Shown in pieces: positions 9,001 to 15,000 of a stretch of DNA of 35,118 bases. The DNA lies in the IMG/VR virus record IMGVR_UViG_2529293069_000022, one strand, 5' to 3'. Numbering within the stretch: position 1 is the first letter of the stretch; each line of letters starts with the position of its first letter. Source of the stretch: a virus. Its lineage: Duplodnaviria > Heunggongvirae > Uroviricota > Caudoviricetes. A program made the position numbers.

Positions 9001-12000
9001 GCACAATTTGTTATGTGATCGTGCTGATCGGATACGCAATATTAAGGTACACCCCCACATATCAAACCTCATTGTCAATAATGGTTACAGGGATGTTAGT
9101 TGGTATGGGATGGTGGATACAGTGCATTACTTCTGCAGCCAATACTCGCAGATCACATACCCTGAACATGATCATTAACACGCGAACCAGCCCGGAATAC
9201 CAGAAACAATTAAGAAACAGCACCGCTTTCTATCGAGGTATGCGCTATGTACCACAAGAACTTTCAGAATGGCGATGCAACCCTGATAAAGACGAATATA
9301 AGAATATGAAAGTACCGGAAGAATATCGCGACGCAATTAATGGGCTTCTATATATTCTTAACTACTTTGAGTTTCTTGCCCAAGGGATCAAATTCAAAGA
9401 TTTAGATGACGGGTTACTAAAAGAATGTTTCTCAAGCTTCCTAAGAGGCATCGAGAGGCGAGGGTTTCACATGATCTTAGAGTCGCAAAAGCAAGATCCA
9501 GCAGCATTTGAAGGAATTATTTATCTTTCTAAAAAATGGAATGGTTCATCATTTGTAGAAACTCACCGATCAAACCCAAATACTGTTGAACTTGGTATCC
9601 CTTATCCGTCAAACGAAATTGTTGAGAAAATGGTGAAGGGCATCCCCATCCTTGAGGAAGAACCAGCGCCAGAGTTACATCTTGCCTCCGAAACAGAGAC
9701 TCAGTAATGACACAAGAGGGATATCAATATGCACGTAAAATGCACTTAGCCAGTATCAAAACTTAATAACTAAATATATTCAATGAGTTATGCTATTTTC
9801 GGACACGGGTTCAACTCCCGCCAGCTCCACCACTTTTTAGTTGTTTGAAGTACAATGAAGTCTACTAAGCCCGCACAGCACAAGCTCTGCGGGCTTTTTT
9901 ACGTCTATTGTCGTCCAGTGAGAATTGCTGAGAACTACGAGTTATGGCACCCTGAATGGGACCCACTAAGAAGGGTCCAAAAACCGAGGGTCCCAAAATG
10001 GCAAAAATCGCTAAGAAGCTCACTGACACTGAAATCAAAAGCACCAAGCCAGCCGACAAAGAAATCAACTTGTTTGACGGAGATGGTTTGATACTACGAA
10101 TCGCTCCCCTCTCGAAAGGAGGAAAGAAGAATTGGTATTTCAGGTATGCAGTGCCAGTGAGTAAAAAAAGAACCAAAATGAGCCTTGGGACCTATCCTCA
10201 CCTTACACTGGCAAGAGCCAGAGCCTTACGTGATGAATATCTTTCCTTTCTGGCAAATGGTGTTGATCCACAAATCCATAACAACGATAAGGCGAAGGCA
10301 TTAAAGAGTGCTACTGAGCACACTCTCCAAGCCGTAGCGCGGAAATGGTTAGATGAGAAGGTAAAGACATCAGGTATCTCACAAGACCATGCAGCAGACA
10401 TCTGGCGCAGCTTAGAGAGAAATGTCTTTCCTGGTCTGGGTAATGTCCCTATCAATGAGATCCGGCCTAAGCTCTTAAAACAACACCTTGATCCTATTAA
10501 GCAACGAGGCGTATTGGAAACTCTACGCCGTATCATTTCACGTCTGAATGAAATCTTCAGGTGGGCAGCTACTGAAGAACTTATTGAGTTCAACCCGGCT
10601 GACAACCTTGGTCAAAGATTCAGTAAACCAAAAAAGCAAAATATGCCTGCCCTTCCCCCAAGCGAATTGCCAAGGTTTATGGAATCTTTGACGAATGCGT
10701 CAATCCGGTTGGAAACACGTATGCTAATTGAATGGCAATTGTTGACATGGGTTCGTCCGGGTGAAGCCGTTCGCGCAAGATGGTCTGATATTGATACAAC
10801 CAACAGCATTTGGAACATTCCTGCTGATTTCATGAAAATGAAAAAGCCTCACAAAGTTCCTTTGAGTAAAGAAGCTTTGCGCATCCTTGAATTAATGAAA
10901 TCAATAAGTGGGCATAGAGAATGGGTTTTCCCCAGCATTAAAGCGCCTCTTAATCATATGCATGAACAAACAGCCAACGCAGCTATCATCCGAATGGGGT
11001 TCGGAGGCGAGCTTGTAGCTCACGGTATGCGTTCTATTGCGCGAACAGCGGCAGAGGAGTCTGGTAAATTCAGAGCTGAAGTTCTTGAGGCAGCGCTTGC
11101 CCACTCGAAAAAAGATGAAATTATCGCAGCATACAATCGTGCAGAATATCTGATAGAGCGACAGAGTTTGATGCAATGGTGGAGTGATTACGTTCAAGCT
11201 CAAAGATCAAATGCTCTGGTAGCCTAAGTATCAGAATAGCTAATATAATCCTGAAGGTAAAGAAAATGGAAACCCTATTCAAAGTTTTTGAAAAATTTAG
11301 TTCCAGACCACTTTTTTTTATTTTTTTCGGACTCTCACTTTGTGAATTTTTTCAGAAACAATCTGTTCTGATGAATCCATCAGCAGATAACATCGCGAAA
11401 TTATTCGCAGCCATGATATTAGTTGTTTTTTTTACTTGGGGATTTGAATGGCTAATCTTTAAATTCAATGTAAACCTTGAACCTCATGATCAAGGCGATA
11501 TTGGACCAACAATTGGAACGGCTGCTTTAGCTGTATACTTAGTTTATGCCTTTCATTTTCTCAGTGAAAATCCTGAAGCATTAAATTTAAAGTTATTAAC
11601 TAACTCTGGTTTTATATACAGCACAACTCTATTATTATTCTCATTAGAAAGTATGAAGCTTAGAAGACTTAAACAAAAGTAAACAACATCATTGCGAGAT
11701 AAATACAAAAGAGGTATGGCGGTAAATCACCATACCTAAAACATAATAATTTTGGTAGTATCGGTGATACATAATCCACACAAATATTGGAGCGATACTG
11801 AGACGCTATAACCTGATATCTTTCTCCATAACCAATTCTAAGTTCAGATTTAAGATGCGTTTTTTTTCTTTCCCTTTTTCTTTTGGGGTTTATCGTGATG
11901 TGAATAATATATCTTTGGTTTCAGATTAAATCCTTCAACAACTTCCTTCCAAGTTTGAACCGCTAATAAAAATTGAATAGAATTGATGTCAATTAATTTT

Positions 12001-15000
12001 TTAGCTTTTGTAGTAGTTGAGATCCATAAAACCACATCAGTAATTGTCTCTTCAAATTTTACTACTCCTCTTACTATAGTTTGAATTGTGGTTTTTGACT
12101 GTTCAATATTATAAATTAGATCATGCGGTTTATCTGATATCTTTACAGCAATAATCTCTCCATTTTTATAAAGATCTGCAACTTCAACATTGTAGTCCTT
12201 GCCATTATCACGTAAGGATGGTATTTTTTTTAGCTGGCGATCTAGAAGTATATAACCTTTCTCATCAGACATCTTTTCATTAAAATAATATTCTCTATAT
12301 TCTAATTTGTCTTTAGAAGTTCCTTCTGCGATTTGTTTTATTTTTTCAGCTTGCCATACTTTGAAGTCGTCTTCCTTAAGAGCATCTTTAACCTCAAATT
12401 TTATACTGGCTAAAGAAGTAGACAAATACTTCATAAAAGCAGAGTTAAATCGACTCCATCCTCCCCTCTTAAGGAAGAAGTGCTCGCTGCCCTCGCTATA
12501 AGTAATGCTCAATATTTCTTTTAACGAGGCTGTATGACCACTGTTATTTTCATTAGTTATCTTAACAAAAACTTTATTGACATCTTTTATGTTGTTATTT
12601 TTTATGAATTTCTTTACATCTGCTATTTTTATGTCATTAATTTTATCTGATGATTGAAGATACTTTCCACTCCCCTCAACTTTTGTGTGCAATTTAAAAA
12701 ATGTCAAAGAATTATTAATTACAATAGAGGCACCAAAAGATTGAATCTCATCAATAATAACTTTTGCATCATCTGTAATGATCGATTGAAGTAGACAATT
12801 ATCAAGCTCATCTATCTTTGACTCGTCAGTGATTTTTTCCGATTTAGGAAATTCGATTTTCTCTTTGGTTGCCAACGAAGAATCAATATCATTGAAAACA
12901 TCGACTAATGCAGTAGGAGCACCATCCAAACTTAGCTGAATTGAATCAGAAAAAGTTATATTATTACATCCCCACTTGTCAGTTTCTTTGGCTTTTGTTT
13001 TGAGATGCTCGATGGATTCGCCAGGAAAATATGCTCCTTGAACAAACTGTGAGTATGAGGATGCCTCCTGACTCTTTCCCCCACAAAAGAATCTGCTTTT
13101 CTTGAGTAAAATATTTTCATCATTAGCTATACGCATTGCCACATTCAGCCCAAAGTCTGCTTCAATAAACTTGCTGAGATAAAAATGTGATTTACCAAGA
13201 CTGATAAGATAGCAATTCTCAGGGTCCTTTTCTTTAAATCCTATTAGCAGGCCAAAATAGAATATATTATGAGGCTTTTCAATTTCTTCATTGAAGAAAT
13301 CACTAAAAACATCCCACCACCATACTTCATTTCCTTTTAATTTATCAGAAAAATAAAATTTGAGTTGATAAGATTGATGTAGAATAGTTTTTTGTTCGAC
13401 AAGCCCTTCTTTAATGATTTTTTTTGTCAATTCTGGAAGACTCTTATATGGCATTCTATATATGTTATAGCTGACTGACATTTAATCGCCTCTGAAATAT
13501 ATATTCATACAAGTTAATGTTAAAGTGAAAAATTTTTAATATACTTAATTTATCGAGCTAAAATACTTAATGAATTTAACAACTGTATATCCAAGGTTTC
13601 ACTTGAGGGCACTGGTAGTCCGTTCGCAATGCGATAATTTTTTATTGACTGCCTTGTGGAAGGCCCCATTATGCCGTCAATATTCCCGTTGTAATAATCT
13701 TTGTCCAGCAAAGCGAATTGAACCCGCATGATTAAGCGCTTACGCTTCTCTGTACCAGAAGTCAGCCCATTACTTGCACGGTTAGCTTCTGTAGTTCCAA
13801 CAGAATTCGTAGTAGTAGAGTTGTTATTGTCGTTAGAACGAAGCGAACGCACAGAGGAAGAGGACGATGAGGGACTTGTTCCTGAACTTGAAGACCCAGA
13901 TGAACTTGGTAAGCTGTATGTTTTTGGATAATAGGGAGTGCTGCCACCATAGTACCCGCCACCTGATGATGAACGGTGAGAACTATGGCTCCGATGGGAG
14001 CTATGACTGCGATGCCCTGCAATGTAGAATGGAACTTCGGTGTTAAGTGGGGCTATCACTAAATCATGTTCATTAAGAGTCATACCAGGCAAATCACTTG
14101 CCCATACAGAATTATTGAGTGCCAAAAACCCCGGAAGTAGAGCAGCAAAATTAAATTTTTTCATAAAATTGGTCTCGGTGGTTGATGAAAACGGCCCGTT
14201 GAAGAACTGAAATAACCAGCACAGGAAGACTTCTGAGTGCATTCATCACATTCTTTAGGATAGTAATTTTTCCAATCAGAGATCGACTGAGCAGCAAGCT
14301 CCCAGGCTCTTTCAGGAAGATGACACAAAGGATAATTAAAAATTGTTAGAGGTATACCTGACCTGTGTGCAGCGTCTATAGCGGAGGTTATTTTCTCACT
14401 ATAGCTGCTGTGTTCAATGAAGATTGTTGACCAGTTTTTTCGCGCCCAACCGATAGATTCCAACCCCATAAGGGAAATCTGATTGATGTTGGAGAAAACA
14501 CGGCCAACGAACTCTACGATGCCATCCAATTCCGTATAGTTAGCCAGTGTCGGAATAACTCTAAGTTCGATATTAATCCCTGAGTTCCCTGCATTGATTA
14601 ACCCCTTAACCGTTTCATTAAATGCGCCATCACTTCCTACCAAATGATCATGCACAAGTGGTCTTGATGAGTAGAGCGGTATACCAAAGGTGATTTTTAT
14701 CTTTTTACTTCGCTTTGCCATTTCATGAGTAAAGTTGGTATCAGCAAATTTGCGCCCGTTTGTTAAAACATGCAAAGCAGTATCTGGTGAATTCTCGATG
14801 ATAAAATCAATGAAGTTAAGCAAATCATCTCCATACAGCAAAGGTTCACCACCGCTGACCCCAACTACTCCATTCAACCCAAATGAAGCGATAGCAAGGG
14901 CTGATTGGGTAAGTAGCCAGTCATCATTTGATTTCTTTGGTGGCTGCGAACAAAAGAGACACAAGTTATTGCAGCGTTCCGTTACTAAGACAGTATTATG

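What the first reader, a model, noticed from the sequence alone, without database searches (positions are those of the whole stretch)
11850..13481. Unassigned 543-aa protein immediately downstream of the Hxs operon
Large AT-rich ORF with no motif I can assign, on the same strand and only 68 nt beyond hxsA with no evident terminator between them, so it may be co-transcribed. It is flanked on the other side by the integrase. It could be a stand-alone defence or abortive-infection protein, or a partner of the Hxs system.
Basis: inference. Interest (0 to 1): 0.55.

Follow-up and report, generated by a model that had tools for sequence, protein, structure and literature searches.

The report
Uncharacterised nuclease gene after HXS operon
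This is a real, intact gene of the uncharacterised DUF6119/TIGR04141 family that most likely encodes a self-contained DNA-cutting anti-phage protein, sitting in a swappable cargo slot right after the HXS phage-defence operon; it is a good but untested candidate for a new defence gene.

Summary
The ORF is real: window 11850-13481, minus strand, 543 aa, 68 nt after hxsA. It is intact and under purifying selection (dN/dS 0.07-0.16). RefSeq's 'frameshifted' flag looks like an artefact.

About 103 of 155 E. coli hxs operons carry a DUF6119 gene directly after hxsA, drawn from lineages only 16-43% identical. Linkage is not obligate. Published work shows the four hxs genes suffice for defence. Close relatives are solo genes in Proteus, Pectobacterium, Aeromonas and Pseudomonas. 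In sister islands the same slot holds Gabija, PDC-S06 or a PRTase-ATPase instead.

Best reading: an autonomous single-gene defence nuclease cassette in a variable defence slot, probably read through from hxs. In this strain hxsB carries an 11-nt deletion, so HXS itself is probably dead. No experiment supports a defence function yet.

The parts
11850..13481 (-). DUF6119 / TIGR04141 family gene, 543 aa, intact (the finding)
   Evidence: ORF list. Pfam PF19614 E=3.8e-27 and TIGR04141 E=8.9e-22. 100% identical copies in Raoultella and K. oxytoca. dN/dS 0.065-0.157.
12747..13481 (-). N-terminal domain (aa 1-245): alpha/beta domain with TBP/RdgC/Iml3/Med20-like and CYTH-like structural matches; proposed nucleic-acid-binding or sensor module
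11877..12710 (-). C-terminal half (aa 258-535): restriction-endonuclease-like (PD-(D/E)xK) fold; proposed catalytic module
12099..12293 (-). Putative active-site residues: E397 (12291-12293), E433 (12183-12185), D436 (12174-12176), K447 (12141-12143), Q461 (12099-12101)
   Evidence: E433, D436, K447 and Q461 are invariant in 97 of 97 homologues, down to 16% overall identity. E397 is conserved in 96 of 97. Codon coordinates checked.
11853..11891 (-). Lysine-rich, low-confidence C-terminal tail (KPQKKKGKKKNAS) containing a 12-nt GKKK repeat whose copy number varies between alleles
   Evidence: one unit here, two in E. coli SX45. pLDDT below 50 for aa 535-543. Lysine-rich tails occur in all clade-a orthologues.
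13482..13549 (-). 68-nt hxsA-DUF6119 spacer with a Shine-Dalgarno AGAGG (13493-13489), a promoter-like match, and no terminator
   Evidence: Sequence. Best promoter-like match of the region is TTAACA-16-TATATT at 13523..13496. Its predicted start site would fall inside the SD, so it is doubtful. No terminator in the gap.
11712..11737 (-). Terminator-like hairpin (10-bp stem followed by a T-rich run), 113 nt after the stop, between the two convergent genes
13550..16921 (-). hxsD-hxsB-hxsC-hxsA operon directly upstream; hxsB (15266..16643) is broken by an 11-nt deletion
   Evidence: NCBIfam HxsA, HxsB, HxsC and HxsD matches. The two HxsB halves lie in separate ORFs. 11-nt gap relative to the Raoultella copy. 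RefSeq also flags it as 'frameshifted'.
9956..11682 (+). Island backbone on the other side: P4-type tyrosine integrase (9956..11227) and a 138-aa membrane protein (11266..11682, phrog_6556)
   Evidence: Both genes are retained in the sister island L060, where the slot holds PDC-S06. They therefore belong to the backbone, not to the DUF6119 cassette.

Best explanation
The ORF encodes a cytoplasmic, single-polypeptide nuclease of the DUF6119/TIGR04141 family. It acts as an autonomous anti-phage (or anti-foreign-DNA) module.

Proposed mechanism:
- The N-terminal TBP/RdgC-like domain binds or senses nucleic acid, or an infection cue.
- It thereby gates the C-terminal PD-(D/E)xK domain, which cuts DNA using E397/E433/D436/K447/Q461.
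- No methyltransferase or antitoxin accompanies the gene. Discrimination between self and foreign DNA must therefore come from auto-inhibition, from recognition of DNA ends or structures (as in Shedu), or from recognition of modified phage DNA (as in Type IV enzymes).

Genomic setting: the gene is a low-GC cassette in a variable cargo slot immediately after hxsA, inside an ssrA-integrated mobilisable island. There it is probably transcribed by read-through from hxs, giving a cytoplasmic second layer behind the periplasmic HXS block of DNA entry.

Shown: the gene is real and intact; family membership; fold similarity; invariant residues; genomic linkage; slot variability.
Inferred: nuclease activity, the role of the N-domain, the defence function and co-transcription.
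For: Family and integrity.

Conserved residues: E433, D436, K447 and Q461 are invariant and E397 is conserved in 96 of 97 sequences, down to 16% identity.

Autonomy:
- 18 of 29 species-level loci have no hxs within 10 kb and share no conserved neighbour.
- A 74%-identical copy in Proteus mirabilis and a copy in Aeromonas are single-gene islets between core genes.
- HXS defends with only four genes (PMC13128918).

Defence context:
- Neighbours of solo copies include a CBASS cyclase and effector, HamA, LmuB (twice), PDC-M43A/B and PDC-S54.
- The Pectobacterium brasiliense copy sits next to a DEAD helicase, a BrxC-like ATPase and a TerB protein.
- The window gene lies between HXS and an integrase, with an ABC-3C/Lamassu-like system beyond.

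Slot exchange: on the same or related island backbones, the position after hxsA holds Gabija (L057, L136, L070, L075, L076, L138, L036, L047), PDC-S06 (L060, L061, L063, L072, L074), a PRTase-CE/ATPase (L090), or DUF6119.

Cassette nature: GC drops by about 10 points at the hxsA boundary in all three lineages.

Not a phage or plasmid gene: weak matches in only 3 of 50,697 phage records and 2 of 72,556 plasmid records.
Against: - No experiment on any DUF6119 protein was found in the searchable literature.
- There is no PADLOC hit. The defence role therefore rests on context alone.
- The canonical (D/E)xK triplet reads A/S-V-K here. The active-site assignment is therefore a model.
- No sequence-level match to any nuclease family in Pfam or the PDB.
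- Many neighbours of solo copies are ordinary housekeeping genes.
- The very frequent placement after hxsA could mean more than shared slot usage.
Confidence: 0.55

Rival explanations
1. A dedicated fifth component of an extended HXS system. DUF6119 would work only together with HxsA-D, for example by degrading phage DNA stalled at the entry channel or by covering phages that escape HXS. It would be co-regulated with hxs as one operon.
For: - All sampled E. coli DUF6119 genes lie directly after hxsA on the same strand. That is about 103 genomes, although hxs occurs in only 155 of 5426.
- Lineages a, b and c, only 16-43% identical, occupy the same position, with gaps of 15-23 nt (b, c) or 59-72 nt (a) and no terminator.
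- All 24 contigs read for the most abundant enterobacterial HxsC cluster carry it.
Against: - The four hxs genes alone gave broad defence. The authors report that more than 99.8% of systems consist of four proteins (PMC13128918).
- DUF6119 is absent from P2-prophage-borne and IS-flanked E. coli hxs, from Salmonella, K. pneumoniae, Providencia, Serratia fonticola and Alcanivorax, from 16 of 24 enterobacterial-type metagenomic loci, and from all 6 marine-type loci with enough downstream sequence.
- Solo copies are common, including a 74%-identical one in Proteus.
- Gabija and PDC-S06 sit equally close to hxsA.
- In this strain hxsB is broken while the ORF is intact.
Confidence: 0.15
2. A nuclease that serves the mobile element rather than the host. 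It could exclude competing plasmids or islands, act as an addiction toxin, or process DNA for island maintenance or transfer.
For: - In hxs-bearing islands the gene lies at the island end, next to a P4-type integrase or next to ParB/RepB genes and a serine recombinase.
- Relaxase genes lie in the same islands.
- Distribution is sporadic, GC is low, and decay is frequent: split or fragmented copies in L019, L021, L023, L024 and L028.
Against: - Solo copies in Proteus and Aeromonas have no mobility genes nearby.
- No mobility gene is a conserved neighbour across loci.
- No antitoxin-like partner is conserved.
- The alternative occupants of the slot are defence systems, not mobility functions.
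Confidence: 0.15
3. Not a nuclease. The C-terminal half would be a non-catalytic alpha/beta (STAS-like) or DNA-binding module, and the protein would act as a regulator or nucleoid-associated protein.
For: - No nuclease family matches at sequence level.
- The canonical (D/E)xK acid two residues before K447 is missing.
Against: - An invariant acidic/basic constellation (E397, E433, D436, K447, Q461) is placed on the helix-strand-strand-helix elements expected for PD-(D/E)xK.
- Nucleases outnumber and outscore STAS hits for the isolated half.
- hhalign of the family profile against E. coli RdgC finds nothing.
Confidence: 0.08
4. A decaying pseudogene with no current function, as the RefSeq annotation of this strain implies.
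For: - RefSeq flags it 'frameshifted'.
- Neighbouring genes are broken in this strain: hxsB, the relaxase, and apparently the ABC-3C ATPase.
Against: - The frame is full length and identical to copies in other genera.
- It differs from other alleles only by an in-frame repeat unit.
- All invariant family residues are present.
- dN/dS is 0.07-0.16.
Confidence: 0.03

Closest known systems
Pfam DUF6119 (PF19614) / NCBIfam TIGR04141 'sporadically distributed protein'
   Same: Matches both models well above their curated cut-offs. Same length and domain order as the family. Carries all invariant family residues.
   Different: Nothing; it is a member. The family has no assigned function, fold or literature.
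Hachiman HamA (DUF1837) PD-(D/E)xK defence nuclease
   Different: No sequence-level similarity and no PADLOC HamA hit. No HamB helicase partner. DUF6119 has its own large N-terminal domain and occurs as a single gene.
Shedu SduA (DUF4263): single-protein defence with an N-terminal sensor and a PD-(D/E)xK nuclease
   Same: Same general logic from my own knowledge of Shedu: one polypeptide, a variable N-terminal regulatory domain, a C-terminal restriction-endonuclease-like nuclease, and no methyltransferase.
   Different: No PADLOC or Pfam hit to Shedu/DUF4263. The N-domain fold and the motif (ExxD...[S/A]VK...Q) are different. Oligomeric state and trigger are unknown.
EC869 CdiA-CT DNase toxin and type II/IIS restriction-endonuclease catalytic domains (N.BspD6I, FokI, BamHI, Bse634I/Cfr10I/NgoMIV)
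   Different: No immunity protein and no methyltransferase partner. No recognisable DNA-recognition domain of those enzymes. Sequence identity is 7-11%.
HXS (HxsA-D) anti-phage system (Li et al., Nat Commun 2026, PMC13128918)
   Same: Physically adjacent, same strand, probably the same transcript. The gene is linked to about two thirds of E. coli hxs operons.
   Different: It is not one of the four necessary genes and is absent from many hxs loci. It is predicted to be cytoplasmic and nucleolytic, whereas HXS acts in the periplasm through matured HxsA.

Membership tests
DUF6119 / TIGR04141 | Whole-protein score above the curated cut-off of the family HMMs | tested here: met
   PF19614: 95.6 bits against a cut-off of 27. 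TIGR04141: 77.2 bits against a cut-off of 35.
DUF6119 / TIGR04141 | Full-length architecture (about 530 aa) with the family's invariant residues | tested here: met
   97-100% query coverage in most full-length homologues. W55, W342, E397, E433, D436, K447 and Q461 are all present.
PD-(D/E)xK (restriction-endonuclease-like) nuclease superfamily | Alpha-beta-beta-beta-alpha-beta core fold | tested here: met
PD-(D/E)xK (restriction-endonuclease-like) nuclease superfamily | Catalytic D ... (D/E)xK motif on strands 2 and 3, plus a helix glutamate | tested here: inconclusive
   E397 (helix), E433-x-x-D436 and K447 (11 residues after D436) and Q461 are invariant or nearly so. The residue two positions before K447 is A or S, not D or E. 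This fits known motif variants, but residue-level superposition could not be inspected.
PD-(D/E)xK (restriction-endonuclease-like) nuclease superfamily | Metal-dependent phosphodiester cleavage | not testable with these tools
   Needs purified protein.
HXS system (as a component) | Required for HXS defence | tested here: not met
   Published deletion analysis: the four cloned genes hxsA-D are necessary and give broad defence (PMC13128918).
HXS system (as a component) | Conserved co-occurrence with hxsDBCA across the system's range | tested here: not met
   Present in about 103 of 155 E. coli loci. Present in 8 of 24 enterobacterial-type metagenomic loci, in none of 6 marine-type loci and in no remote-type locus. 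Absent.
Hachiman | HamA (DUF1837) together with a HamB helicase | tested here: not met
   No PADLOC or Pfam HamA hit for the ORF. No helicase gene is adjacent.
Shedu | DUF4263 nuclease domain | tested here: not met
   No Pfam or PADLOC hit other than DUF6119.
Anti-phage defence system (generic) | Enrichment next to known defence systems, or location in variable defence hotspots | tested here: met
   Known defence proteins occur among the neighbours of solo copies. The slot is shared with Gabija, PDC-S06 and a PRTase-ATPase. No formal genome-wide enrichment statistic was computed.
Anti-phage defence system (generic) | Protection against phage on heterologous expression | not testable with these tools
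   Experiment needed. No report was found in the library.

The most novel reading that the evidence does not exclude
DUF6119/TIGR04141 is a previously unrecognised single-gene anti-phage nuclease family that has been recruited repeatedly, from lineages only 16-43% identical, as a co-transcribed cytoplasmic second layer behind the periplasmic HXS DNA-entry block. The five-gene hxsDBCA-DUF6119 unit would then be a functionally synergistic two-compartment defence, for instance by covering HXS escapers such as T4 and P1.
Probability: 0.15. Interest if true: 0.7.

Novelty: new member of a known kind. Interest (0 to 1): 0.5.

Why it matters
HXS was described in 2026 as a four-gene system. This analysis shows that about two thirds of E. 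coli hxs operons, and the commonest enterobacterial type, carry an undescribed fifth gene directly after hxsA.

The position after hxsA is also a variable slot that otherwise holds Gabija, PDC-S06 or a PRTase-ATPase. That gives a concrete, cheap test for a new defence family. It also offers a natural system for asking whether a periplasmic entry block and a cytoplasmic nuclease act synergistically.

The work assigns a first fold and a candidate active site to a family known only as a DUF. If the protein turns out to be just another stand-alone defence nuclease, the gain is incremental, because many such families are already known.

Tried and rejected
- Sequence searches against the PDB, with the single protein and with a profile, found nothing meaningful.
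- Full-length Foldseek against the PDB found nothing significant.
- The afdb50 library was unavailable.
- Pfam scans of the three segments at E up to 10, and of 91 diverse family members, gave no second family.
- PHROGs gave only a weak hit to a fragment of unknown function.
- PADLOC gave no hit.
- Literature searches for DUF6119, TIGR04141, PF19614 and 'sporadically distributed protein' gave no functional paper. A search for RdgC with anti-phage and nuclease also gave nothing relevant.
- The second 543-aa ORF in the window (28650..30281) is unrelated.
- I first thought enterobacterial DUF6119 genes were always hxs-linked. Solo copies in Proteus and Pectobacterium brasiliense overturned this.
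- The promoter-like match in the 68-nt gap was considered as an own promoter and downgraded. Its predicted start site falls inside the Shine-Dalgarno sequence.
- I could not establish whether E. coli strain MEM, the source of the validated HXS clone, carries DUF6119. It was not in any listed row.
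Full report
OBSERVATION

It lies 68 nt downstream of the hxsA stop codon, on the same strand. GC is 0.320, against 0.426 for the hxs operon.

A pattern scan finds no terminator-like hairpin in the 68-nt gap. The first one on this strand lies 113 nt after the ORF's stop, at 11737..11712. The best promoter-like match of the region (TTAACA-16-TATATT, 13523..13496) lies in the gap. Its predicted start site would fall inside the Shine-Dalgarno AGAGG (13493-13489), so I give it little weight.

The integrase (9956..11227, +) is not the immediate neighbour. A convergent 138-aa membrane-protein ORF (11266..11682) lies between them.

The window is 100% identical to E. coli O157:H7 strain 493/89. RefSeq annotates the gene there as a 'frameshifted' DUF6119 pseudogene. 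I consider that an artefact for three reasons:
- The 543-aa frame is full length for the family.
- It is 100% identical to copies in Raoultella lignicola and Klebsiella oxytoca.
- It differs from the 547-aa E. coli SX45 allele only by one in-frame 12-nt GKKK repeat unit in a lysine-rich tail.

dN/dS against orthologues is 0.065-0.157.

WHAT IT IS

The protein matches Pfam DUF6119 (PF19614, E=3.8e-27) and NCBIfam TIGR04141 'sporadically distributed protein' (E=8.9e-22). It has no PADLOC hit.

The family is modest in size: 280 clusters at 50% identity with E up to 1e-3, among 1.84 billion representatives. It is isolated at sequence level. There is no second Pfam family in 91 diverse members, no PDB relative, and only a weak PHROGs fragment hit. 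I found no paper that assigns it a function.

STRUCTURE

An AlphaFold2 model built from 43 homologues is confident (pLDDT 80.9, pTM 0.75). It has one clear low-confidence linker at aa 246-257. Foldseek with the whole model found nothing.

- TBP/RdgC/Iml3/Med20-like and CYTH-like folds
- STAS domains
- many PD-(D/E)xK nucleases

- The RdgC, Iml3, Med20 and CYTH hits vanished. They therefore belong to the N-terminal domain (aa 1-245).

Independently, I aligned 91 family members at 19-40% identity and added the most divergent hxs-linked lineage (16% identity). In this set W342, E433, D436, K447 and Q461 are invariant, and W55 and E397 are conserved in 96 of 97 sequences.

These residues sit on helix 396-408 (E397), strand 430-433 (E433), the hairpin (D436), strand 442-448 (K447) and helix 452-470 (Q461). 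That is the layout expected for a PD-(D/E)xK active site. The usual acid two residues before the lysine is replaced by A or S, so I call the motif test inconclusive rather than met. hhalign of the family profile against E. coli RdgC was negative. The N-domain assignment is therefore structural only.

LINKAGE TO HXS, SEEN FROM DUF6119

A scan of one genome per species found 29 loci. In 10 of them hxsD-B-C-A lies directly upstream:
- L001-L007: Raoultella, Klebsiella, Buttiauxella, Erwinia, Serratia, Pantoea, Kluyvera
- L016: Dryocola
- L018 and L025: Photorhabdus

An eleventh locus (L020) is cut by the contig end but shares downstream genes with L016. The other 18 loci have no hxs within 10 kb and no conserved neighbour of any kind. 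They come from Pseudomonas, Acinetobacter, Burkholderia, Janthinobacterium, Chromobacterium, Aquitalea, Phytopseudomonas, Ventosimonas and Morganella. Several of these copies are split or fragmented.

Closer relatives can also be solo:
- A 74%-identical gene in Proteus mirabilis is a single-gene islet between core genes.
- An Aeromonas copy is a single-gene islet after guaA.
- A 55%-identical Pectobacterium brasiliense gene sits next to a DEAD helicase, a BrxC-like ATPase and a TerB protein.

LINKAGE TO HXS, SEEN FROM HXS

Counts among 5426 complete E. coli genomes:

| Feature | Genomes |
|---|---|
| hxs operon | 155 |
| This DUF6119 lineage ('a') | 31 |
| Very different lineage ('c' and a 77%-nt variant) | 72 |

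Wherever I could compare coordinates, the DUF6119 gene abuts hxsA, with gaps of 18-20 nt for lineage c and 68 nt for lineage a. The identity bands of the two searches match one to one. That gives about 103 of 155 loci (66%).

The 46 hxs copies carried in P2-like prophage hotspots, and IS-flanked copies, lack the gene.

A neighbour-joining tree shows three lineages after hxsA:
- a: the lineage of this window.
- b: Dryocola and Photorhabdus, 42-43% identical to a, nested among solo Pseudomonas and Acinetobacter genes.
- c: E. coli HCM-22C-2 and 1283, the Klebsiella-type cluster and Pectobacterium parmentieri, only 15-17% identical to a.

The hxs operons themselves remain 73-95% identical at nucleotide level.

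Other HxsC contexts:
- All 24 contigs read for the most abundant enterobacterial HxsC cluster carry DUF6119 followed by ParB/RepB genes. Pectobacterium parmentieri has the same arrangement plus a serine recombinase.
- DUF6119 is absent in Salmonella and K. pneumoniae (Gabija sits there instead), and in Providencia and Serratia fonticola. It is also absent in Alcanivorax, where a PF27798 protein and a MauG-like peroxidase follow hxsA.
- Among metagenomic loci with at least 2.4 kb of sequence after hxsC, 8 of 24 enterobacterial-type loci carry it. None of 6 marine-type loci does, and no remote type does.

THE SLOT IS VARIABLE

In loci lacking DUF6119, the position immediately after hxsA on the same strand holds other cargo:
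- Gabija GajA+GajB: L057, L136, L070, L075, L076, L138
- The PADLOC candidate PDC-S06 (AAA_13/PrrC-like ATPase): L060, L061, L063, L072, L074; split in L066
- A 1096-aa ATPase fused to PRTase-CE: L090
- An unknown trio that includes an ATP-grasp-like protein: L077

L057, L136 and L060 share the window's integrase downstream. L060 also keeps the 138-aa membrane gene. The exchanged segment therefore corresponds to window ~11684-13553, which is just the DUF6119 gene. GC falls by about 10 points at the hxsA boundary in all three DUF6119 lineages.

Among 93 proteins flanking 18 solo copies, PADLOC recognises a CBASS cyclase and effector, HamA, two LmuB, PDC-M43A/B, PDC-S54 and mad2-like methyltransferases. 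Many ordinary genes are there too. Homologues are almost absent from phage and plasmid records.

WHAT IS KNOWN ABOUT HXS

Li et al. (Nat Commun 2026, PMC13128918) cloned hxsD-B-C-A and found protection against 110 of 113 coliphages, with T4 and P1 among the exceptions. All four genes were necessary. Matured HxsA acts in the periplasm to block DNA entry. The authors state that more than 99.8% of systems consist of four proteins. They do not mention a downstream gene.

In this window hxsB carries an 11-nt deletion relative to the Raoultella copy, which is otherwise almost identical (2 mismatches in 1378 nt). HXS is therefore probably inactive in strain 493/89, while the DUF6119 gene is intact.

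INTERPRETATION

The evidence fits best with an autonomous, single-polypeptide nuclease cassette that behaves like a defence gene. It is sporadic, low in GC and often decayed. It occurs as islets and in defence neighbourhoods. It is interchangeable with bona fide defence systems in one slot of a mobilisable island integrated at ssrA.

Read-through from hxs is likely where the gene is present, given the tiny gaps in lineages b and c and the absence of a terminator here. Gabija and PDC-S06 sit just as close to hxsA, so closeness does not prove functional dependence.

The recurrent pairing with hxs, from lineages that share only 16-43% identity, remains more than I would expect from chance slot usage. 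That keeps a synergy or partner model alive at roughly 15%.

How such a solitary nuclease spares host DNA is unknown. Three options are consistent with the architecture: auto-inhibition by the N-domain until a cue is sensed, recognition of DNA ends or structures, or dependence on phage DNA modification.

VERDICT

The gene is a known but functionally blank family member. I assign it a nuclease fold, a candidate active site, and a well-documented defence-slot context. It is a reasonable, testable candidate for a new single-gene defence family. Its interest is moderate unless the link with HXS proves functional.

Noticed in passing
window 15266-16643 (-): hxsB is split into two ORFs by an 11-nt deletion relative to the Raoultella, K. 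oxytoca and O55:H7 copies. All four hxs genes are required, so HXS is probably inactive in this strain.
   Followed up: yes
window 11850-11891 (-); L031 9956-10010: RefSeq calls the DUF6119 gene 'frameshifted' in strain 493/89. The only difference from intact alleles is the copy number of an in-frame 12-nt GKKK repeat in the lysine-rich tail, so this looks like an annotation artefact.
   Followed up: yes
L057 7761-11675; L060 8147-10354; L090 7761-11051; L077 7746-9869; L036 6303-10012: The position directly after hxsA is a variable cargo slot. In different islands it holds Gabija, PDC-S06, an ATPase fused to PRTase-CE, or an unknown three-gene set with an ATP-grasp-like protein. The published HXS description does not mention this.
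   Followed up: partly
L042 6242-7854: In Alcanivorax the hxs operon is followed by a PF27798 'His-Xaa-Ser_sys' protein and a MauG-like di-haem peroxidase. Marine HXS types may therefore have different accessory genes.
   Followed up: no
window 17613-21768 (+): An ABC-3C/Lamassu-like system: CTD1/LmuA-like protein, MComp1, and an SMC-type ATPase. The ATPase is in two ORFs here (19448-20302 and 20479-21768) but is a single 773-aa ORF in Raoultella, K. oxytoca and Kluyvera, so it is probably disrupted as well.
   Followed up: partly
window 17178-17417 (+): A C-terminal remnant of a second integrase lies just beyond hxsD. The hxs-DUF6119 block is thus bracketed by an intact integrase and an integrase fragment, which suggests tandem or nested islands at ssrA.
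   Followed up: no
window 28650-32804 (-): Three tandem genes of 403, 441 and 543 aa. The first two have tyrosine-recombinase domains, resembling a 'recombinase in trio' unit. The 543-aa one is unrelated to the DUF6119 ORF despite its identical length.
   Followed up: partly
window 23361-24593 (+): The relaxase/mobilisation gene of the island has an internal stop according to RefSeq. Several island genes in this strain are decayed.
   Followed up: no
window 11266-11682 (+) and 8784-9707 (+): A 138-aa membrane protein (phrog_6556, E=1e-68) is conserved next to the island integrase. A DUF4760 protein with strong PHROG hits sits between the lambdoid prophage integrase and the island integrase. 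Neither has a known function.
   Followed up: no
L144 7607-11599: The solo DUF6119 gene of Pectobacterium brasiliense lies beside a DEAD/ResIII helicase, a BrxC/BrxD-like ATPase and a TerB-N/TerB-C protein, which may be an uncharacterised defence cluster.
   Followed up: no
window 26052-27344 (-): A 430-aa protein with a weak PADLOC hit to PD-Lambda-4_B (E=1.9e-7) and a proline/acid-rich repeat region.
   Followed up: no
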